From the NCBI GenBank assembly GCA_048213135.1, contig PS015183.1:80241-129206 (forward strand): a DNA stretch of 48,966 bases, read 5' to 3'. This DNA is from Reclinomonas americana ATCC 50394 (taxonomy: Eukaryota). How positions within the stretch are numbered: the stretch's first letter is position 1; the number at the start of each line of letters is the position of its first letter. The notes under the pieces are model-generated. The model did not search any database. It was not told the origin of the DNA and saw nothing but the letters and a program-made list of their open reading frames with translations. The position numbers and the translations under genes were made by a program. Positions 12,978 through 45,094 of this stretch are shown in pieces.

Positions 12978-15494
12978 TCACTCAACCACTTGCGTAAACT
13001 GCCCGCACGCCTCGCGCAACGCACGCATGCCATCGTACACTTCCTGCGCGGTTGGCCGGTCGCGCCGCATGCTCATGCACCGCAGTCCGAGGTCAAACAT
13101 GGGTTCGACAATGCGCGGCGTCCACTCGACACCGCCTGCGGCATCCACGAGCTCCATCGGACGCAGAGCATCAGGGGAGCGATCCCACGTATACGACCAC
13201 TCGCGAACGGCGGAAGTGGGCTTGCCAGTCACAAGCTGCACAAGGACAATCCCCATGGCAAATACATCGCTTTCCCGCTTTGGACTTCTGGAGTGCATGT
13301 GGAGCGGGTCCATATAGTCCAACGTACCGGCGGCAGTGGTTGTCTGTGGGTAGATAAGAGGAGGCAGTCAGCATGAGCACAGCAGAATGGTTTGGCAGAT
13401 TCGCGAGAGCTTGCACACTTTGCCATCCACAACAGATCGCGCGATGCCAAAGTCGCCGAGACATGGCTGTAGGCGGTGGTCAAGCATAACGTTGGAGGGC
13501 TTGATGTCGCGGTGTACAATCTCGTTCTGCATCAGGCTCCAGTGACACAGTGCTATGTGATAGTAACAAAGAATCGCAGCCTCACAGACCTCGTGCAGGA
13601 ATGCCACGGCCTCAGCCAATCCGAGACCAATTTGCACACGCTGCACGACAGAGAGCGGATTGCGGCCGGAAACGAGTGGCAGCAGGAGTAGGTCTTCCAA
13701 GTTGGGGACTCTGCACGTGCTCATCGTCAAGTCGTCAAATAGGCAAACCAGATGCAAGAGTGAACGAGGCACGCACTCGAGGGCTTTGTACACGAGGCAA
13801 CGCGCCTTGTCGTCGCCCACTGCGTAGCCAAGGAGCGGGACTAGGCGACGGTGGCGCAGACGACCAAGCGTTCTGACCTGCCGAGGGAATGAGAAGATTT
13901 AGAAAACGATATCGGGCGAGAAGGAAAACTGACCTCGCTCTCAAATGAAGACAGCGACCAGGGCGCGGACGAGTCGAGAACCTTGATGGCCACATGCATC
14001 TCACGAAGCAGGGTGATGAAGACGGTTCCCTGACCGCCTTCACCGACCTTCAGGCTAGGCGAAAAGGAATTGGTAGCCTGTACAATCTCGGGCCATTCGA
14101 AGCACTGTACCGAGGTGTCGACTGCGGCAGCAGAAAAGGTGAATGCCGAGACACGTGCACATGCGTACAAAGCGATGTCAAAACCTTGTGCGAGGAGGAG
14201 TTCGTGGCGGAGCTGAGAGACGAGTAAATTGCTCTCATCCAGTCGTCGTTGGCATTCCAGAAGCTGGCCCCCCATGGCTGCCAGACGTGCAGTAAGCTCG
14301 TCGTTCTCGCGCAGGACCGAGCAAAGCTGATCGTTTGTCGCATGAAGTTCGAGGGCCTGCTGTTGCGAAACTAGTTCCGTTGTTGCCAGTTGTTGACGAA
14401 CGGTGGCGAGTTCAGCGACCACGGCATCCTGCTGTTGACGTGACTTGATACGCTCTGCTTCGACTTCAGCGGCAAGCTGATCGCGCTCTGCGCGCAGTCG
14501 CGTCTCCAACTGGCTGGCAGCAGCGCGCTCCGTTTTCAATTGTGCATCGAGGGTGGTGGACCGAGAGGTTTCTTCTCGCAATCGCGTTTCGAGTTCGGCA
14601 AGGCGCGTTACATTCGCTGGCTCTGGCAGAGCGGGGTAACGCAACGGTGGTGACTGATGCATGAAAGGAGAAGGATATGAGCTTTAACGAGACACGGTAA
14701 TCGCTGCACACGGACTCACCGGCTCAATTGGTGGTGGAGGGAGACCTTCATCTCGCGGTCTTGCTACGGACGACGGTGCACCCACCACGGCATCAGCAGA
14801 CGCCGAAGTGCCCGCGGCCGAGGGTTTCGTGAAAACGGGCGGATCCGACGAGAAGACCGTCGACAGCTGCTGTACGAGCTTGGAGAGTGTGGACGTCCGC
14901 GAATACTCTGACAAGTACAGATGATACACGCGACCATCTCTGTCGACATGCCGATGCTTTTCCACAATTAGCATGTTGGACGTCGGCGTTACGTACACCA
15001 CCGGTGGCTGCGATGGAAAGTTTTCCGGAATCCAGATGTTGATAGGCAGATTGTACTGCGTTGAAGCATAGAACATGGGAACGGTGCCGTCCAGAAGAAG
15101 CAACAGGGCGTCAGAGCCGTCCTCACGGACTGATATGATAGGAGAGGGAGAGAGAGAGAGAGAGAGAGAGAGTGACAGATCAGTATGAGAGTGCATTCAT
15201 CTCACGCCCATTCTTCGCACTGTGCTCACCAAGTTCACTCACATTGGGTGTGAGGGATGGGTAAATGCGACACACATTCTGCACCTCGATCTTCACATGC
15301 TCACGATTCGGGTATGGATAAGCCTGCAACACACACACACACACACGCACACGCACACGCACACGCACACGCACACGCACACGCACACAAAACACAGGCA
15401 ACATTCATGAGACGTGTGCACGTTCAGCCACACGCGTGCACAGACAACCACAGGAACATCACGCAACTCGGTCCAACAGCCTGTCAAGAGACAT
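12978..15494 (-). CDS. UEV (TSG101/Vps23-like) - Pro-rich - coiled coil - IRAK/Pelle/RLK-like Ser/Thr kinase fusion protein
   Basis: UEV: LDGTVPMFY...YNLPINIWIPENFPSQPPVVYVTPTSNM...HVDRDGRVY. Kinase: FEWPEIVQATNSFS..VGEGGQGTVF, VAIK, CLVY, HRDIKPSN, DFG, GTLDYMDP, SDVFAMG. All exons join in frame. Confidence 0.9.
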
Positions 15495-15885
15495 GTTTTG
15501 CGGTGCAACAGACAACTGACGACAGCAAGCGCCGGGGTTTCACCTATCGTCAGGCTTTGTTTTGTGCTGTGTCCTTGAGTCCTCCGTCCCACCTCCACCC
15601 ATATCACACGCAACGGTCCCTCTCACGACGGTNNNNNNNNNNNNNNNNNNNNNNNNNNNNNNNNNNNNNNNNNNNNNNNNNNNNNNNNNNNNNNNNNNNN
15701 NNNNNNNNNNNNNNNNNNNNNNNNNNNNNNNNNNNNNNNNNNNNNNNNNNNNNNNNNNNNNNNNNNNNNNNNNNNNNNNNNNNNNNNNNNNNNNNNNNNN
15801 NNNNNNNNNNNNNNNNNNNNNNNNNNNNNNNNNNNNNNNNNNNNNNNNNNNNNNNNNNNNNNNNNNNNNNNNNNNNNNNNNNNNN

Positions 15886-16337
15886 TGGACACCACAGTGC
15901 GAGTGTGGTCGCTGGCGAGCGGAGACGAGGTGCGACGGCTGGAGGGCCTCTCTGCAGTGGTGAACGCTGTCGCCGTCACTTTCGATGGTCAGCGCTTTGT
16001 GAATGGGAGCGGAGACGGCACGGTGTGTGTGCGGTCACTGGAGGATGGAGAGGAGTTGCGACGGTTGGTGGGACACTCGGGAGTGGTGAACTCCGTCGCC
16101 GTCTCTCCCGACGGTCAGTGGGTTGTGAGTGGGAGTGACGACAAGACTGTGCGAGTGTGGCCCACGCCGCGCGGGCTTGCCACACAAGAGCTTGCAGCCG
16201 CTCGTTCGGCCGTGCGGGCCATCGACGAGCTGATCGGCGAGGAGGCTGACGGCGACTGGGTTCTCGTCGATGTCGTGTTGCGGTGCTTTGTGTTGGAGGA
16301 TGCAGAAGTGCTCGCGCGCCGTGCGCTTCCGTGGTGA
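15886..16337 (+). CDS. WD40-repeat protein, array copy 1 (3' part; 5' in gap)
   Basis: VRVWSLASGDEVRRLEG...GHSGVVNSVAVSPDGQWVVSGSDDKTVRVW followed by a helical tail ending ARRALPW*. Confidence 0.88.
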
Positions 16338-22022: not shown

Positions 22023-22181
22023 GTAGGTGCGTGACAGTCATCGTATCAGACGACCCAGTTGACTCAACGTGAGCCTCGGTCGATGGAGGGCACTCTTTGC
22101 GTCACTGTGGCGCCGCGTGTCCTTTGCCTGTCATGTCTCTGCACACCGACACGCATTCCCTCGCATTCTCTGCAGAACAGC

Positions 22182-23145
22182 ATGCCGGCAGAGGTGTGTG
22201 TGATACATGGGTGCTGTTGTCTCCTTCTCTCCTCGTGTGTCCATCTCTTTCCTTCTCCGTGTCTGTGACTGCTTCCATGCATCTGACTTTGCCTTTCCCT
22301 TCTCTCTGTCCTCGCCCACACAGGTCTTGGAGGGACATGCGTCTGGCGTGTGGACAGTCACCGTCACCCCCCGACGGCCAGCACATTGTGAGTGGTGGCG
22401 ACCACACCATTCTTGTGTGGTCTGCGACGAGTGGCGAAGTGGTGCGGCGGCTGAATGGCCACACCGACGCGGTGATGTCTGTCGCTGTCACTCGCGACGG
22501 TCAGCACGTTGTGAGCGGCAGTTATGACAACACTATGCGTCTGTGGTCGCTGGCGAGTGGACGGGAAGTGCGACGGTTCGAGGGCCACACTCGCGGGGTG
22601 CGATCGCAGCGGTCGCCATCACTGCCGATGGTCGGTTCATCGTGAGTGGGAGCCATGACAACGGAGCGCGAGTGTGGTCGTTGGCAAGTGGAGAAGAGTT
22701 GCGACAAATGAAGGGACACACTGCATGGGTGCAGTCTGTTGCGATCGCTCCCAACGACGAGTTCGTCGTGAGCGGCAGTGCAGACAGGACTGTGCGAGTG
22801 TGGTCGCTGGCGAGCGGTGAGGAAGTGCGCCGGTTGGAGGGTCACACGGGAGTGACGTGGTCGGTCACAGTCACCCCCGATGGTGAGCACATTGTGAGCG
22901 CGGGTGGATACGACAACACAGTGCGAGTGTGGTCACTGGCGAGTGGAGAGGAGGTGCGACGGTTGGAGGGTCACACTTCGAGTGTGGTGGCTGTCGCCGT
23001 CACATTCGATGGTCAGTGGATTGTGAGTGGGAGCGGAGACGACACGGTGCGAGTGTGGTCGCTGGCGAGTGGAGAGGAGGTGCGACGATTTGAGGGACAT
23101 ACAGATCCGGTGTTGTCTGTCGCCGTCTCTCCCGACGGTCAGTGG
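22182..23145 (+). pseudogene. WD40-repeat gene, array copy 3; two frameshifts (pseudogene or homopolymer errors); 3' end in gap
   Basis: About 7 WD40 repeats of ~126 nt spread over three ORF segments. Frame changes at the C6 run ~22366-22371 and the G4 run ~22595-22598. Confidence 0.7.
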
Positions 23146-30698: not shown

Positions 30699-32860
30699 CT
30701 TTTCCTGGTCGGCGCTCTTTTCGGGCGGAATCACGAGGTACACCTTCATAATGTCGCCAGTGAGGTTCTCAATCGAGCGTAGCATGTCCAATGGATGATT
30801 GCTGCTCGTGCCCTCCAGGCCCTGCGATGGCAACATGTGAGCACTCGTGTGTGCTCGTGTGTACAGGCCACCGCCACACTCACCAACACCGTAAACACTT
30901 GCTGAACGAGTTCTGTGGCATTACGCAGACGCTCCTCGTCCGCACTCGAGTGGAAACGAGTTCCCGCCGTACTGTAGCGTGCGTGACTCTAACAATGAGG
31001 ACGCCGAGCGCAAAGCGACAACGTAAACCATCAGTTGCTGACGCACCCCAACAACGACTCCAGCTTTCGTTGCCTTTCCTCCTCGAAATCGACCTCGGCA
31101 GCCACACGCGATGCCACCTCTTGTCGGTTGGCCAGCTGAGACTCACTGCGGAAAGAGGTTGGCGATTGTGCTGCGAGTGAGCACTCGCGGTGGAACAAAG
31201 GCTTGACGCAGTGCGGAAAATACGCAACAGCTCCTCGGTGCGCACACGAATTTTGCGATTCCACGTCTCCAGCTGCTCCTCGGCCTCCTGCTTGAGTTGC
31301 ATGAGGAAGAGGTTCTTGTCCTCCAAACTGGTGAACTCGGCCAGCAGCGATTCGGGGTGATCCATCCAGTACTTGATGCAGTTGAGCTGCACGCGGAGAT
31401 GAGCAAATAACGACACTGTTTGGCTGACGCGCACGGCGCAACTCTGAAATCCGCCTCGTCGTCCTCGGTGGGCTCTGCAGGCTGATCTGGCACCTCGGTT
31501 TTGAAGGTCTGCAGTCCAAAAAAAACAGTGAGAAAGCGATTCAACTGATTGTTGCTGGCGGTGAGTATTTCATGTCGGCCCGCAACTGTGGACTGGTAGC
31601 GCAATTGCTGCTGTTTCCACTCCTTGGGCGTCAGCTTGTCGAGGAACTCCTTGTAGTTTCGCAACTCATTCAGCTGCTCATCTTTCGAGGAGAGCTCGGA
31701 GCGCACGCGAGTGATCTCGGTCGTCAGACGCTTGATCTCCTGCACCTTTTGCTCCTTGTTGCGAGCGGCTGCGTCGGCCCTGCTCACCGAGCGGGGAGGG
31801 TGTTAGCGACAAAAGCGAAAAAAGAAGGCAAAGAGACACACACACACGCGCCTCTTGATCTCGTCAACAGCCTCCCGCTCAATCTGATTCATCTTGTTGC
31901 CGACGGCCAGGAACTCCTTTGCAATCTGCTCCTCGCGCAAGCGTAGTGATTCCTCCTTTTGCAGCACCTCCGCCTGCAATCGCTCCGTTTCCTTGCGCTT
32001 CTCCTCCAGACTCATTTGCAGGAGGAAGATGTTGCGCTTGGATTGGATGAAGTCCGACATGCGTTCCTTGTCGGGGCGCGCCACTGCAACAACAACACAC
32101 AGTCAACACCGGAAGGTGAAGGGGGAGGGGAAGGGGAAGGGGAAAGAGAAAGAGAAGGAGAAAGAGAAGGAGAAGGAGAAAGAGAAGGAGAAGGAGAAGG
32201 AGAAGGAGAAAGACAGGAAAGAAGAAGCAGAAGGAGAAGAAGAAGAACAACGACGACAACAACAACAATAATAATAATGAAACGAAGAAGAAGAAGAAGG
32301 AGAAGGACGAGGAGGAGGGGATGATCTAGAAGAACGCAACAGTGCTTGCGGATGCTGAGCAGCTTGTCAATCTTTTGCTGGCTGGCCTCCATCCGCCGAA
32401 TGTCCTTGGCCGTCAGCTTGACCTCGTCCAGCTGCAATCGCTGCGTGCCGATACTTGACGAGAAGGTGTGTTTGGCGTGCACAGGCATGTGCATGGTTTG
32501 CGAGCGGGACTGCATGGGAGAGGCAAAGGGAGAAGGGGGCACAGGGAGAAGGGGGCACAGGGAGAAGGGTGAGAGGATGAGGGAGAAGGGAAAGGAGAGG
32601 GAGAAGGGCAAGGAGAGGGAGGGCATCAGCTGCAACAACTGCATTGAGAAGGAGATGAGAAGAGACACGAGAAGAGAGACGGGTAATGGTGACGAGACAA
32701 ACGAAAGAGGTGGAGTGTGGCAAGCAGGAGAGACAAGGGAGAAGGAGAACTGCGTGAGAGACAGAAGGAGACAGCAGGGAGTGAGAGAAGGAGAGAAGAG
32801 ACATAGCTACCCGACTGCAGTCATTGACCACAAGAAGAAGAAGAAGAAGAGAGAGAGAAG

Positions 32861-33986: not shown

Positions 33987-36900
33987 ATGAAGAGTCACCG
34001 GACGGTGAGCGAGATCTTGAGCTCGTTGCGCGTTGATGTGCGCTCGGTGACGGCGGATGTGGTGGAGAGTGGATCGGACTCGCTTCGTTGAGTGTTGCGA
34101 GGGTTGGTGGGGAAGGAGGGATGGAGGGCGATTTGCTGCTTGCCTCCACACCATCGAGTGTGTCACACGGTCGACGAGAGAGGTACAACAGATCTTGCAG
34201 GTCTTCTTGTTATTCGCGACCTGAATTGTCTGTCTGTCTCTCACTTCGCGAAGCCGTTTCTGTTTCATGAGTGTGCTGTCGACGAGAGGCACAGCAGATC
34301 TGCAGGTCTTCTTGTTATTCGCGACCTGCATCGTCTGTCTTTCACTCCCTCTGCCTTACGAGTGTGGTGTCGATGAGAGGCACAACAGATCTGCAGGTTT
34401 TCTTCTTCCTTGTTTCGCGACCTGCATCGTCTGTCTCTCACTCCCTCTGCCTTCGCGAAACCGTTTCTGTTTCCTGAGTTTGTGGTCGACGAGCAGATCC
34501 GCAGGTTTTCATCTTCATTGTTGGCGATCTGCATCATCTGTCTCTCACTCCCTCGGCATACGCGAAGCCGTTTCTGTTTCATATGAGTTTGTGGTGGACA
34601 ACCGAGACAGGCGATCTGCAGATCTTCTTCTTTCTTGTTTCGCAACCCTTCATTGTCTGTTTCTCTCTCTCTCTGTCGGCCTCTGTATCCACAAGACTGT
34701 TTAGACAGAGACTTGTCAACGAGCNNNNNNNNNNNNNNNNNNNNNNNNNNNNNNNNNNNNNNNNNNNNNNNNNNNNNNNNNNNNNNNNNNNNNNNNNNNN
34801 NNNNNNNNNNNNNNNNNNNNNNNNNNNNNNNNNNNNNNNNNNNNNNNNNNNNNNNNNNNNNNNNNNNNNNNNNNNNNNNNNNNNNNNNNNNNNNNNNNNN
34901 NNNNNNNNNNNNNNNNNNNNNNNNNNNNNNNNNNNNNNNNNNNNNNNNNNNNNNNNNNNNNNNNNNNNNNNNNNNNNNNNNNNNNNNNNNNNNNNNNNNN
35001 NNNNNNNNNNNNNNNNNNNNNNNNNNNNNNNNNNNNNNNNNNNNNNNNNNNNNNNNNNNNNNNNNNNNNNNNNNNNNNNNNNNNNNNNNNNNNNNNNNNN
35101 NNNNNNNNNNNNNNNNNNNNNNNNNNNNNNNNNNNNNNNNNNNNNNNNNNNNNNNNNNNNNNNNNNNNNNNNNNNNNNNNNNNNNNNNNNNNNNNNNNNN
35201 NNNNNNNNNNNCCCCCTTCCCCCCTCTCCCCCCTTCCCCCCTCTCCACCTCCCCTTCCCTCCCCCCTCCACACAGGAGACCTGCAGTGGAGCCCACAAAC
35301 CAGCGACTTTCTAACCATTCTGCGGCGCCACAAGCCGCCACTGCCCGTACTGCATCGCAAGCGCGTGGCCGAGTACTTTACCATTCTCAACCTGCGCAAG
35401 CGCAAGGTCCTCCTCCTCTCTTCTGCCTTCTCCTTTTCGTCCCCCAACCCTTGCCTTACTTGTCGGCGCGCAGATTGGCGTCATTGACAAGGACTTTGGC
35501 AAGTTCTCGCGCCTCACCGAGGTCAACGTGTCGGCCAATGAGCTGCGCGTGCTGGAGAATTTGCCGCCGCATGTCAGCATTGTCAATGCCTTTGCGAACC
35601 AGTTGCGCTTTCTTTCGATTCCACTTTGCAGTCGTCCCTCTTTTGCTCACTCGTGCGTGTGCAGGATCACCGAGGTGCGCCTGCCGTACTCGCGCAACGT
35701 TCAGCACCTCGGCCTCGGCAACAACTTGCTCAGCAGTCTGCAGTTCCTGGCAGAGACCGACGGTGCGTGTTGTGAAGCTGATGTGTTGGTCTCTCTGCAT
35801 GCTGTCCACTCACTCTTCACAGACGAGGGCAACACGGTGTGGCCGGCTCTGGTGGGGTTGGATGTGTCGTTCAACGAGTTTGATCAGTGGGACGAGTTTC
35901 TGGCGGTGGTGCAAAAGCTGCCGGCGCTGCGCATGTTGTGGATTCAGGGGTTGCGTCGGGGGGAAGGAGGAGAAGCTGGAGCCTGTTTTCCAACCCCAAG
36001 AACTTACCTTTACCGCAGCAACCCAATGTCCATGTGCATTGGAATCCGCGATGCTGCATTGCTGGGCTTGCCGCGACTGCGCTACTTGGACGGGGTGGAG
36101 ATTACTGTGCCGGAGCGTGATGCTCTGCAAGAGCGAAGCGAGCGCACACAGAGGATACTGGCGGAGAAGGGCGAGTTGCCGCCTGGCGAGCGGGACGAGA
36201 GACATGTGATTCCTGGTCTGTCCTCTCATGTCCCCCCGCATTGATGGATCATCTGACGCCCTTGAACGCAGAGGTCAAGGTGACGCTGACCATCGACGCA
36301 GTGTCGTCTGTCATTCCGCGCGTGCCAGAGGCCGCTGAGCTTCGTCCACTCTTTGATGAGACGGTGCCCGACGACCAGAAAAAGTTGCACATTCCCTCTC
36401 ACCTTCTCACGTCGTGATTGCTACACTCCTCACACACACACAACCTTGCAGACTGTGGGCACCGGTGGCGTACTCGCTGGTGTACTCGTTCTTTGGGCAC
36501 CCACCAGTGCGGTCGGTCGAGTTTTTCAATCCGGTGGAGCAGCAAAAGATTGAGGCTCTCACTGCGGAGATCAGTGGTGGTGCGGCAGGCGGCAAGGGTG
36601 GCAAGAAGGCTCCTCCGGCCAAGGTGTGTTATGTGCAGACAACTCGATAAGCAGGTGGTTTCTCGCCATTTTGACAAGTGGTGCGTGTGTGTGCGTGTGT
36701 GTACAGCCTCCTGCTGGCAAGAAAGGCGCCCCCGCCCCCGTCGAGGAGGAGGTGGGCGCAGAGGAGCGGATCAACGGCAAGGTCACTGCTTTGCTGAACG
36801 AAATGCGTGTACCGTTCGATGCGCGATTGCCGGCAGCGTGGGCGGAGAAGTTTGTCGTTCCATGTGGCTCGGCCTTGTTCCACTATCTGCGTGGTGCGCC

Positions 36901-43414: not shown

Positions 43415-45094
43415 CTTGTCGGGGTACACCTGCACGTCGCCAAGACCCTCATCGCGGTAGGTCTCAATGACCACGTTGACGGACTCGATCGACTTCGAGA
43501 AGCTCTGGTACGCGGCCTCAGGCTGCAGCTGGAGCTCCAGAATGGCGCGGTCGAGCTTGTTGACGACAAGCACCGGCTTGATACGCTCCGACAGAGCCTG
43601 GCGCAGCACGGTCTCGGTCTGCACGCACACACCCTCGACGCAATCGACGACGACCAAAGCGCCGTCAGTCACACGCAGAGCGGCAGTCACCTGTGTAGAA
43701 AAAAAGCAAAGGGTGTGAGGGGATACAAGCGATGTAGGAGGAAGGGTAGGAAGAACAAACCTCCGAGCTGAAGTCGACGTGACCGGGGGAGTCGATGAGG
43801 TTGATCAGGTACGACTCCTTCTCGCCCTCAGGGGCGTTGAGCTTCTGCATGGCGAAGAAGAGCGAGATCGAGGTGGCCTTGATGGTAATGCAGCGATCCT
43901 GCTCGTCCTGGCGGGTATCTAATGGGAGGGAGAAGGGAGGTGAGAAGCGGGGGCAAGATGGAGGGAAAGAGAAAGGAAGGAGGAAAACATCCAATGCCAG
44001 AGATGACATGACGCGTCGGCAACATGACAGAAAAAGCGTGGCCGACATGGCGCGGACATGTCGAGGCGCCACGAGAAAGCACGCACCACGCCCGCACAGC
44101 GACGCACAAGACGCAACAAGTAGACGTGGCAAGAGGCGAGGGCGAGAGCGACAGGGGGATGAAAGAAGGGGAGAAGCGGAGGAGTGGGTTGCGAAGCGTG
44201 TGCATGTTGCACCGCCAAGACGACGACGGGGTACAACAGACTCACGATGCCAGGCACCCGCAGCACCTCTCTTGTTGTCCTCGCAGCGCACGGCAATGAA
44301 GTGAACGCAAAGGAAAAGAGTGCGGTGGTTTGGTGCAACAAAAGCACAAGTGCAGATGCACATGGCCAAACTCACACGCGCCGAATCTTTTCTTCGCTTC
44401 TCTCCACACCTACTCATCTCTCTCTCTCCCCCTGTCCCTCTCTTCGCCCAACAACATTGCGACAAAGAGACTGAAAGACGCAAAGAGAACATGATATTCA
44501 AGTGTGCGCGGGAGCGCAGAATCCTCAAACGCACTCCGATCCCACCACCACCACCACAACAACAACACTCACCAGTGATGCGCTTGTCACCGGCATCGGC
44601 AATGGCGATGATACCGGCGGCGGCGACCAGACTGTGCCAAGGGGAGAGAGGAGAAGGCGTGTGAGCACACCGACAAGCACGCGCCAAAATACATCACACG
44701 CGCACAAACGCACCTGTCGGTCAGGGTGGACTTGCCGTGATCGACGTGAGCAATCACAGACTGTGCGCGACAAAGTGGCGATGAGCAACACGGTGAGCGG
44801 CACGGAAAGGGGGCGAGAGCGTGTGACAAGAGCGACATGGCGCATCATGTGGAGCTAAACATGGCTCCCTCCCCTTTTGCCCCTCCCCCCTCCGCCCCAA
44901 GCACCCACTCACCATGTTACGAATGCTCGTCTTGATGTCCATGATGCGGCGGACTTCGTCTACGCTGAAGTTCACCTGTGGGGAGCGAGGAAGAGAAGCG
45001 GAGCGAAGAGTGAGTCTTCCGATGGCAAACCCCCGACGACACATAAAAGATTGCTGCGCAATGAGCAAGAGTGGACGGGGTGTGTGCGCACCAT
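43415..45094 (-). CDS. EEF2: Eukaryotic translation elongation factor 2 (N-terminal part; rest in gap)
   Basis: [40 protein letters not shown]../[63 protein letters not shown]. Confidence 0.98.
44200..44345 (-). ncRNA. Candidate intronic H/ACA-type snoRNA in the long eEF2 intron
   Basis: Hairpin - ACAACA (H box, 44273-44278) - hairpin - ACA (44205-44207) + 3 nt on the sense strand. Confidence 0.35.

What the first reader, a model, noticed from the sequence alone, without database searches (positions are those of the whole stretch)
12978..15494. TSG101-type UEV domain fused to an IRAK/Pelle-like kinase: possible ESCRT 'integrated decoy' sensor kinase
Seen: one gene encodes a UEV domain closely resembling TSG101/Vps23, a Pro-rich linker, a long coiled coil and then a kinase. 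The UEV-to-coil join needs only a 66-nt GTGAGT..CAG intron (14654-14719), and the coil runs into the kinase within one ORF. Known: TSG101 is UEV-Pro-coil-steadiness box, so here the ESCRT-I core appears replaced by a kinase. The kinase has the RLK/Pelle/IRAK N-terminal motif (F..EI..ATN.FS..GEGG.G.V), a Tyr gatekeeper (CLVY) and intact catalytic residues. UEV domains bind ubiquitin and P(S/T)AP motifs, including viral late domains. Inference: a sensor that couples capture of PTAP or ubiquitinated ligands to kinase signalling, analogous to integrated-decoy immune receptors. I do not know this architecture from characterised proteins.
Basis: partly seen in the sequence, partly recalled or inferred. 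Interest (0 to 1): 0.78.

Follow-up and report, generated by a model that had tools for sequence, protein, structure and literature searches.

The report
TSG101-type UEV domain fused to kinase
One intron-rich eukaryotic gene appears to join the ubiquitin/PTAP-reading head of the sorting protein TSG101, through a long dimer-forming coiled coil, to an IRAK/plant-receptor-type protein kinase, a combination I could not find described, although no RNA evidence or second example could be obtained.

Summary
On the minus strand, 15494-12978, eight exons joined by seven GT..AG introns (144, 100, 66, 56, 66, 63, 75 nt) give an open 648-codon frame. It encodes a TSG101-type UEV domain (Pfam E 1.1e-30; human TSG101 UEV E 3e-21), a Pro-rich linker and one 158-residue helix. 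That helix is predicted to pair in parallel and in register (0.55 against 0.00 for the best control). A Ser/Thr kinase follows, and three separate pieces of it match plant RLK/RLCK and human IRAK structures best. The Vps23 core that defines ESCRT-I TSG101 is absent.

The UEV and coil-kinase frames are the same frame, broken by one TAA inside the 66-nt intron. No RNA evidence could be obtained.

None of the 150 nearest UEV proteins carries a kinase, and none of the 120 listed kinase relatives carries a UEV domain. Four literature searches found no description.

My reading is a dimeric cytoplasmic IRAK/RLK-like kinase aimed by its UEV head at P(S/T)AP-type or ubiquitinated partners. The "integrated decoy" idea remains untested speculation. 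It is a new variant of known kinds, of moderate interest.

The parts
15468..15494 (-). Exon 1 (tentative), ATG 15494-15492, residues 1-9
   Evidence: model. Its donor GTTGCG is unusual. It adds 6.8 bits to the TSG101-profile score (220.3 against 213.5 without it). An unspliced start at ATG 15404 scores 215.5.
15324..15467 (-). Intron 1, 144 nt, GTTGCG..CAG, holds a (GT)/(GTGC) microsatellite at about 15329-15390
15230..15323 (-). Exon 2, residues 10-40 plus the first base of codon 41; N-terminal helix and start of the beta-hairpin of the UEV
   Evidence: aligned to the TSG101 profile from residue 2
15130..15229 (-). Intron 2, 100 nt (not a multiple of 3), GTGAGC..CAG, 86% pyrimidine tract
   Evidence: Its removal restores the frame and collinearity with TSG101.
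14720..15129 (-). Exon 3, residues 41-177: main part of the UEV domain (to about residue 145, nt 14816) and first half of the Pro/Ala-rich linker
   Evidence: Pfam UEV E 1.1e-30. Human TSG101 UEV E 3e-21. AF2 model with pLDDT 84.7 matches TSG101 UEV structures at rmsd 0.9-1.7 A and 41% identity.
14654..14719 (-). Intron 3, 66 nt, GTGAGT..CAG: the UEV-to-coil join. It holds an in-frame TAA (14686-14684) and, 21 nt further on, an in-frame ATG (14662-14660).
13934..14653 (-). Exon 4, residues 178-417: rest of the linker (178-188), coiled coil (189-346, nt 14620-14147), spacer, and kinase N-lobe from about residue 360 (nt 14107) with Gly loop, VAIK Lys401 and alphaC Glu417
   Evidence: AF2 gives one helix, 12-169 of this exon, with pLDDT above 95. 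Homodimer prediction scores 0.55 against 0.00 for the best control. The N-lobe matches LysM-RLKs, CERK1 and IRAK1.
13878..13933 (-). Intron 4, 56 nt (not a multiple of 3), GTCAGT..CAG
   Evidence: The join is collinear with RLKs.
13777..13877 (-). Exon 5, residues 418-450 and part of codon 451: beta4-beta5, gatekeeper Tyr447
13711..13776 (-). Intron 5, 66 nt, GTGCGT..CAG
13590..13710 (-). Exon 6, residues 451-491: hinge to alphaE
13527..13589 (-). Intron 6, 63 nt, GTCTGT..CAG
13419..13526 (-). Exon 7, residues 492-527: catalytic loop HRD(498)..N503 and DFG 516-518
13344..13418 (-). Intron 7, 75 nt, GTGTGC..CAG, with an in-frame TGA
12978..13343 (-). Exon 8, residues 528-648 plus TGA (12980-12978): activation segment (Thr528-530, YMDPL) and kinase C-lobe
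   Evidence: Pfam Pkinase. The best solved relatives are plant LRR-RK, BIK1, lectin-RK and SymRK.

Best explanation
A single nuclear gene of an intron-rich eukaryote encodes a 648-residue cytoplasmic protein. Its parts are a TSG101-type UEV domain (1 to about 145), a Pro/Ala-rich linker (about 146-188), one long helix (189-346) that forms a parallel in-register homodimeric coiled coil, and a C-terminal RD-type Ser/Thr kinase of the RLK/Pelle/IRAK kind (about 360-648).

Shown: the domains, their order, the open spliced frame, the collinearity with TSG101 up to the point where the ESCRT-I core should start, and the presence of the catalytic motifs.

Inferred: the two UEV heads of the dimer dock on P(S/T)AP-type motifs, for example those of ESCRT-0/Hrs-like or ALIX-like proteins, and perhaps on ubiquitin. 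This brings two kinase domains, held side by side by the coil, to endosomal or ubiquitinated targets. The kinases activate by trans-autophosphorylation of the Thr-rich activation segment (Thr528-530) and then phosphorylate the docked partner or its neighbours. Because it lacks the Vps23 core, the protein should not assemble into ESCRT-I. It would read the same signals as ESCRT-I and answer with phosphorylation instead of sorting.
For: Gene model:
- Eight exons give a 1947-nt open frame, and all seven introns are GT..AG, five of them 56-75 nt.
- Two introns (100 and 56 nt) are not multiples of three, so the gene must be spliced to be read at all.
- The spliced kinase aligns without gaps at any join to six RLK/IRAK-like proteins and is 35-42% identical over 215-297 residues to plant lectin-RLK kinase domains.

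UEV domain:
- Pfam E 1.1e-30 and human TSG101 UEV E 3e-21.
- The fold model matches only human TSG101 UEV chains in all 20 listed rows down to rank 21, at rmsd 0.9-3.2 A, well ahead of yeast Vps23 UEV at ranks 26, 41 and 43.
- Met93 corresponds to TSG101 Met95, whose M95A mutant abolishes PTAP binding (passages of PMC2172688). This Met is invariant in the 26-sequence UEV alignment.

TSG101 collinearity: a profile of 119 UEV proteins aligns residues 2-340 to positions 34-349 of 409, at 247.6 bits.

Coil:
- AF2 predicts one helix with pLDDT above 95.
- The two-copy prediction scored 0.55 against 0.00 for the best of 3 controls, and contacts are in register (138 with 138, and so on).
- The runs agree in at least 97% of contacts and partner pLDDT is at least 87.
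- That mark was reached by 21 of 30 proteins solved as homomeric pairs and 0 of 23 solved as single chains. For eukaryotes the counts are 17 of 29 and 0 of 30.
- The model supports pairing but does not show it, and coiled coils may pass from memory.

Kinase type: the best solved relatives of three separate pieces are as follows.
- C-lobe: plant LRR-RK, BIK1, lectin-RK and SymRK.
- N-lobe: LysM-RLK, CERK1 and IRAK1.
- Core: BRI1 at 6.9e-12, IRAK1 at 1.3e-9, then SOBIR1, SymRK and IRAK4. The first non-RLK/IRAK hit is CDKL5 at 6e-6.
Against:
- No genome was available to check for a separate canonical TSG101.
- No second example of the architecture was found. There were 0 kinase hits among the 150 nearest UEV proteins plus P0001, and 0 of 120 listed kinase relatives carry PF05743. 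Two metagenome scans found nothing. The gene may therefore be a lineage-specific singleton or a model artefact.
- The 66-nt intron holds an in-frame TAA, followed 21 nt later by an in-frame ATG. A UEV-only product plus a separate coil-kinase product cannot be excluded from sequence alone.
- TSG101 Asn45, whose N45A mutant abolishes ubiquitin binding, is Glu43 here, so ubiquitin binding is doubtful.
- The APE Glu is Leu541, which may weaken the kinase.
- Similarity of the coil to the TSG101 stalk is weak: 9.2 bits against a maximum of 8.6 for 500 shuffles, and 1.5 for the reversed sequence.
- Kinase placement rests on best hits and not on a tree with outgroups.
Confidence: 0.6

Rival explanations
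1. Two products and not a fusion. In this reading the 66-nt segment is not removed, or not always. The UEV frame would end at TAA 14686-14684, giving a UEV-plus-linker protein of about 188 residues. A coil-kinase protein would start at ATG 14662-14660.
For: An in-frame TAA and, 21 nt downstream, an in-frame ATG lie inside the proposed intron. There is no RNA evidence. No other UEV-kinase protein was found.
Against: - Both frames are the same frame, and the segment has a consensus GTGAGT donor, a CAG acceptor, a 77% pyrimidine tract and a branch-like site.
- Its length matches four other introns of the gene (56-75 nt).
- A 21-nt spacer leaves no room for a terminator and a promoter in a gene that otherwise needs six introns.
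- The join continues one Pro-rich linker across the boundary.
- Intron retention as a minor isoform remains possible and would be compatible with the fusion.
Confidence: 0.12
2. Integrated-decoy immune sensor. Here the UEV is a bait copy of the host TSG101 head. A virus late domain or a pathogen effector that hijacks ESCRT-I would bind the bait and switch on the kinase, as proposed for the integrated domains of cereal kinase fusion proteins.
For: - The UEV is very close to TSG101 proper: 41% identity to human, with the PTAP-site Met kept.
- The ESCRT-I core is replaced by an IRAK/RLK-type kinase, a kinase class used in innate immunity of plants and animals.
- Kinase fusion proteins with integrated domains exist in wheat (PMC10260397 and 10.1101/2025.08.26.672365, seen as search listing and abstract starts only).
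Against: - Nothing in the sequence distinguishes a bait from a working targeting domain.
- No paralogue family, no sign of diversifying selection and no second copy could be examined.
- The window holds no paralogue.
Confidence: 0.07
3. Variant ESCRT-I subunit. The coil is a true TSG101 stalk that still bundles with VPS37/MVB12-like partners, so the kinase rides on an ESCRT-I-like stalk and the protein does not form a homodimer.
For: The full-length TSG101 profile alignment runs on through the coil to the start of the core. The coil alone scores 9.2 bits, above all 500 shuffles (maximum 8.6) and above the reversed sequence (1.5).
Against: - The margin over the shuffles is tiny, and shuffles destroy heptad periodicity.
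- phmmer of the linker-coil against 151 UEV proteins gave no hit at E up to 10.
- The Vps23 core, which binds VPS28 and VPS37 (recalled), is absent.
- The coil is predicted to pair with itself.
Confidence: 0.08
4. Assembly or annotation artefact or pseudogene. Two unrelated genes were brought together by misassembly of a gap-rich draft scaffold, or the locus is decaying.
For: The window has 16 runs of N, one of them only 138 nt upstream of the proposed start. No identical or near-identical protein is in the searched collections; the best UEV identity was 61%.
Against: - The interval 12978-15632 contains no N.
- All exons are open, all joins are collinear with homologues and all catalytic motifs are kept.
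- A misjoin would have to fall by chance inside a 66-nt intron-like segment while keeping frame and phase.
Confidence: 0.04

Closest known systems
TSG101 / Vps23 (ESCRT-I subunit)
   Same: It has an N-terminal Cys-less UEV domain, with 41% identity and rmsd about 1-1.7 A to human TSG101 UEV. The PTAP-site Met is kept. A Pro-rich linker and a long coiled coil follow in the same order. The domain order UEV-PRD-CC-steadiness box for TSG101 comes from passages of PMC7073217.
   Different: There is no Vps23 core or steadiness box; a 290-residue protein kinase stands in its place. The coil is about 158 residues and is predicted to self-pair. The ubiquitin-site Asn45 is Glu here. There is no internal P(S/T)AP motif.
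IRAK/Pelle kinases and plant RLK/RLCK kinases (for example IRAK1/4, BRI1, BIK1, L-type lectin RLKs)
   Same: The kinase domain matches these best in three separate segments. It is 35-42% identical to lectin-RLK kinase domains. It has an RD catalytic loop and a Tyr gatekeeper in LVY. That this gatekeeper is typical of IRAK/RLK kinases is recalled.
   Different: No death domain, transmembrane segment or extracellular domain was found (one search gives no such family). The N-terminal partner is a UEV domain with a coiled coil. The APE Glu is replaced by Leu.
Cereal kinase fusion / tandem kinase resistance proteins (for example Sr43, WTK4)
   Same: An RLK-derived cytoplasmic kinase is fused to an unusual 'integrated' domain.
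   Different: Those are plant proteins with genetic proof of pathogen recognition. Here the organism is unknown, there is no genetic or population evidence, and the fused domain may simply be a targeting module.
Kinases that carry an ESCRT- or ubiquitin-reading module (ULK3 with MIT domains; AMPK-related kinases and SnRK1 with UBA)
   Same: The logic is the same: a small reader domain aims a kinase at the ESCRT or ubiquitin system. ULK3 is recalled. UBA on SnRK1-type kinases is mentioned in passages of PMC3019232.
   Different: The reader domain, the kinase group and the domain order all differ. None uses a UEV domain.
Other non-canonical UEV architectures
   Same: The UEV domain is used as a module outside ESCRT-I. 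Among 119 nearest UEV proteins, 75 have the Vps23 core, 4 a RING, 1 ubiquitin repeats, 1 VWA and 1 an F5/8-C domain. UEV+LDH (UEVLD) is listed in PMC11788884 (passage).
   Different: None of these has a protein kinase.

Membership tests
TSG101/Vps23 (ESCRT-I) | N-terminal UEV domain (E2 fold without the catalytic Cys) | tested here: met
   Pfam PF05743 E 1.1e-30. TSG101 UEV E 3e-21, with Tyr aligned to TSG101 Tyr110 at the vestigial site. Fold match.
TSG101/Vps23 (ESCRT-I) | Pro-rich linker followed by a coiled-coil stalk | tested here: inconclusive
   A linker with 12 Pro in 49 residues and a 158-residue helix are present. Homology of the coil to the TSG101 stalk is weak: 9.2 bits against a shuffle maximum of 8.6.
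TSG101/Vps23 (ESCRT-I) | C-terminal Vps23 core / steadiness box (PF09454) | tested here: not met
   No PF09454 hit on any exon ORF at E up to 0.01. The TSG101 profile alignment ends at 349 of 409. The C-terminus is a kinase.
RLK/Pelle/IRAK kinases (TKL group) | Complete eukaryotic protein kinase core with catalytic motifs | tested here: met
   Gly loop, Lys401, Glu417, HRD, Asn503 and DFG are present. The exception is the APE Glu, which is Leu541.
RLK/Pelle/IRAK kinases (TKL group) | Closest similarity to RLK/IRAK kinases and not to other kinase groups | tested here: met
   In one search all 120 listed hits carry PF07714/PF00069 and most are plant lectin RLKs.
RLK/Pelle/IRAK kinases (TKL group) | Placement inside the clade in a tree with other TKL families as outgroups | not tested
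RLK/Pelle/IRAK kinases (TKL group) | Death domain (IRAK/Pelle proper) or transmembrane/extracellular part (RLK proper) | tested here: not met
   No such Pfam family on any exon ORF. The protein is therefore RLCK-like (cytoplasmic).
Integrated-decoy / kinase-fusion immune receptors | A separate canonical copy of the integrated domain's parent gene in the same genome | not testable with these tools
   No genome is held for the window, and there is no paralogue in the window.
Integrated-decoy / kinase-fusion immune receptors | Genetic or biochemical evidence of pathogen-ligand recognition | not testable with these tools
   This needs experiments.

The most novel reading that the evidence does not exclude
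The protein is a surveillance kinase for ESCRT hijack. Its TSG101-like head acts as bait for viral late domains or pathogen PTAP-bearing effectors, and ligand-driven clustering of the preformed dimers fires an IRAK-type kinase. That would be a protist counterpart of integrated-decoy immunity built on the TLR/IRAK kinase lineage.
Probability: 0.07. Interest if true: 0.85.

Novelty: new variant of a known kind. Interest (0 to 1): 0.45.

Why it matters
UEV domains of the TSG101 type are known almost only as the cargo- and PTAP-reading head of ESCRT-I. IRAK/RLK kinases are known as innate-immune and receptor-proximal kinases aimed by death domains or membrane anchors.

A natural protein that wires the ESCRT-I reader directly to such a kinase would show that the P(S/T)AP/ubiquitin code can be read out as phosphorylation. 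It would offer a simple system, one polypeptide that is predicted to dimerise, for studying how UEV ligand binding can control an enzyme. It would also add a data point on how IRAK-type kinases were deployed outside plants and animals.

If the gene is only a lineage-specific singleton of unknown expression, its value is mainly as a lead.

Tried and rejected
RNA evidence and genome:
- No whole genome is held for the window, so a search for a canonical TSG101, VPS28 or VPS37 was impossible.

Homology searches:
- With the UEV exon and longer lengths, only one hit appeared, P0001, a canonical 530-residue TSG101.
- With exon 4 there was no hit among 8000 candidates.
- Two metagenome scans, with exon 4 and with the UEV exon, gave 186 and 597 pattern matches, none confirmed.
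- The protein-atlas look-up of the UEV exon returned only plain UEV clusters.
- Earlier findings of this scan gave nothing by place or by sequence. A word search returned only Asgard Vps23-like notes that do not bear on this gene.

Literature searches found no UEV-kinase fusion:
- One search returned 7 papers, all listed.
- One search returned 284, of which 15 were listed.
- One search returned 33, of which 15 were listed.
- One search returned 120, of which 10 were listed.
- The 'UEV' mentions in PMC7902614 and PMC11788884 were a UBC2-UEV1 reference and UEVLD.
- The Phytophthora infestans kinome paper has 0 mentions of UEV in its main text. Its supplementary tables could not be seen.

Readings considered and rejected:
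- A stop-codon reassignment or read-through at the TAA. It is unnecessary, because the segment has full intron signals and other introns of the gene shift the frame.
- An unspliced start at ATG 15404 through the (GT)n tract, which scores lower than the exon-1 model.
- Four Logan proteins with two kinase domains plus TIR (P0161, P0166, P0178, P0193) as close kin. Their per-domain scores to this kinase (58-73 bits) are lower than those of plant RLKs (about 130 bits).
Full report
**What is there**

The window is eukaryotic nuclear DNA from a gap-rich draft scaffold. It has 16 runs of N, about 56% G+C and microsatellites. On the minus strand between 15494 and 12978, stop-to-stop ORFs in changing frames carry a UEV domain, a long helical stretch and pieces of a protein kinase.

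Joining them through seven GT..AG introns gives an open frame of 1947 nt, or 648 codons. The exons are 15494-15468, 15323-15230, 15129-14720, 14653-13934, 13877-13777, 13710-13590, 13526-13419 and 13343-12978. The introns measure 144, 100, 66, 56, 66, 63 and 75 nt. They are poorer in G+C than most exons, and most have pyrimidine tracts and CTNAY branch-like sites. Two of them (100 and 56 nt) shift the frame, so the gene cannot be read without splicing.

No N lies between 12978 and 15632. The window holds no paralogue.

**Checks on the model**

- A profile built from 119 of the 150 nearest UEV proteins aligns residues 2-340 of the spliced product to profile positions 34-349 of 409, at 247.6 bits.
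- Exon 1 adds 6.8 bits, so it remains tentative.
- The spliced kinase aligns to six RLK/IRAK-like proteins with no gap at any of the four kinase exon joins.
- It is 35-42% identical over 215-297 residues to plant lectin-RLK kinase domains.

**The join in question**

The UEV ORF (15196-14684) and the coil-kinase ORF (14683-13841) are in the same frame. They are separated by a single TAA at 14686-14684, which lies inside the 66-nt segment 14719-14654 that begins GTGAGT and ends CAG. An in-frame ATG (14662-14660) lies 21 nt after the TAA.

A two-product reading is therefore formally possible. It would need a 21-nt intergenic spacer in a gene that otherwise has six introns of the same style. I give it about 0.12. 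Retention of this intron as a minor isoform, giving a UEV-only protein, is compatible with the fusion.

**The domains**

*UEV (1 to about 145)*
- Pfam gives E 1.1e-30 and human TSG101 UEV matches at E 3e-21.
- An AF2 model of exon 3 (pLDDT 84.7) matches only human TSG101 UEV chains in all 20 listed rows down to rank 21. TM scores are 0.64-0.70, rmsd 0.9-3.2 A and identity 36-41%. Yeast Vps23 UEV appears only at ranks 26, 41 and 43 with 20-23% identity.
- By the alignment, Met93 corresponds to TSG101 Met95. Tyr61, Tyr66, Asn67 and Pro69 correspond to Tyr63, Tyr68, Asn69 and Pro71. That these residues line the PTAP groove is recalled.
- M95A eliminates PTAP binding and N45A eliminates ubiquitin binding, from passages of PMC2172688 and PMC7073217.
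- Asn45 corresponds to Glu43 here, by ungapped extension of that alignment, so ubiquitin binding is less certain.

*Linker (about 146-188)*
- It has 12 Pro in 49 residues and no P(S/T)AP motif.

*Coil (189-346)*
- AF2 gives a single helix with pLDDT above 95.
- Two copies were predicted to pair in parallel and in register, with a score of 0.55 against 0.00 for the best of three controls.
- The runs agree in at least 97% of contacts and partner pLDDT is at least 87.
- That mark was reached by 21 of 30 solved homomeric pairs and 0 of 23 single chains. For eukaryotes the counts are 17 of 29 and 0 of 30.
- This supports pairing but does not show it, and coiled coils may pass by likeness to solved ones.
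- Similarity of the coil to the TSG101 stalk is marginal.

*Kinase (about 360-648)*
- The Gly loop, Lys401, Glu417, HRD 496-498, Asn503 and DFG 516-518 are present, and the gatekeeper is Tyr447.
- The APE Glu is Leu541.
- Three separate segments find plant RLK/RLCK and IRAK structures first.
- In one search the order is BRI1 at 6.9e-12, IRAK1 at 1.3e-9, then SOBIR1, SymRK and IRAK4. The first kinase of another group is CDKL5 at 6e-6.
- A tree with outgroups was not made.

No Vps23 core, death domain or membrane segment was detected.

**Is the architecture known?**

- The UEV exon found 2139 proteins at E up to 0.001 among 1.84 billion representatives. The best 150 were listed, and the highest identity was 61%.
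- None of these 150, nor P0001, matched the spliced kinase at E up to 10.
- I scanned 119 of the 150 in Pfam; 31 were left out for the size cap. Of the 119, 75 had the Vps23 core, 4 a RING, and one each had ubiquitin, VWA or F5/8-C. No kinase family was among the 25 of 28 families shown.
- From the kinase side, 176 proteins matched and 120 were listed, none with PF05743.
- Many metagenome proteins are exon fragments, and only the top of each list is visible. The absence of a second example is therefore moderate evidence and not proof.
- Four literature searches found no description.
- IRAK-like kinases outside plants and animals are known. Phytophthora infestans has five, all predicted inactive (passages of PMC3019232). 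An IRAK4-type kinase is inferred for the last eukaryotic common ancestor (passage of 10.1101/2020.01.27.920793).
- The nearest UEV domains come from scattered protists: Histiona, Plasmodiophora, Nonionella and Rhodelphis. They do not place the organism.

**How it most likely works**

Shown: the domain order, the open spliced frame, the kept PTAP-site Met, the kept catalytic motifs and the predicted long helix.

Inferred: a preformed parallel dimer carries two UEV heads at one end and two kinase domains at the other. The UEV heads dock on P(S/T)AP-type motifs of ESCRT-0/ALIX-like or other proteins, and perhaps on ubiquitin. The RD kinase activates by trans-autophosphorylation of its Thr-rich activation segment and phosphorylates docked partners. 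Without the Vps23 core the protein should act beside ESCRT-I, or in competition with it, and not within it.

The immune-decoy reading is not excluded, but it has no support of its own.

**Verdict**

This is a new variant of known kinds (TSG101-type UEV proteins and cytoplasmic RLK/IRAK-type kinases). For now it is a singleton without expression evidence. Interest is 0.45.

Noticed in passing
window 14654-14719 (minus strand): If intron 3 is retained, the frame ends at TAA 14686-14684 after 11 extra codons. That would give a UEV-plus-linker protein of about 188 residues without coil or kinase, a possible regulatory isoform.
   Followed up: partly
window about 14637-14626 (minus strand), protein residues 183-186: The Pro-rich linker holds a YPAL motif. 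YPxL-type motifs are known ALIX-binding late-domain motifs (recalled). A second YPSL at residues 30-33 lies inside the UEV fold.
   Followed up: no
window about 15329-15390: A (GT)/(GTGC) microsatellite fills much of the proposed intron 1. Read unspliced from ATG 15404 it would encode a Val-Arg/Val-Cys repeat.
   Followed up: partly
window 15888-16337 (+) and 22073-22642 (+): Two WD40-repeat ORF fragments (Pfam WD40 E 1e-19 and 2e-18) border runs of N. They may be parts of one or two WD40 genes broken by assembly gaps.
   Followed up: no
window 31146-31802 (-), 43668-44693 (-), 35315-36241 (+): Other neighbours are a DUF4200 coiled-coil ORF (E 2.6e-11), an EF-Tu-type GTPase fragment (E 6e-11) and an LRR ORF (E 7.5e-7). 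This is ordinary eukaryotic gene content, with no ESCRT or further kinase gene in the window.
   Followed up: no
proteins P0161, P0166, P0178, P0193 (Logan assemblies, 849-872 aa): These kinase relatives carry two kinase domains plus TIR-type domains (PF13676, PF08937). They share 74-78% identity with this kinase only over the 28-residue catalytic-loop stretch. TIR with an IRAK-like kinase in one chain is itself unusual.
   Followed up: partly
proteins P0002, P0003, P0089: Non-canonical UEV architectures appear among the nearest relatives: four tandem UEV domains (1258 aa), two UEV domains plus three ubiquitin repeats (1086 aa), and UEV plus a VWA domain (738 aa).
   Followed up: no
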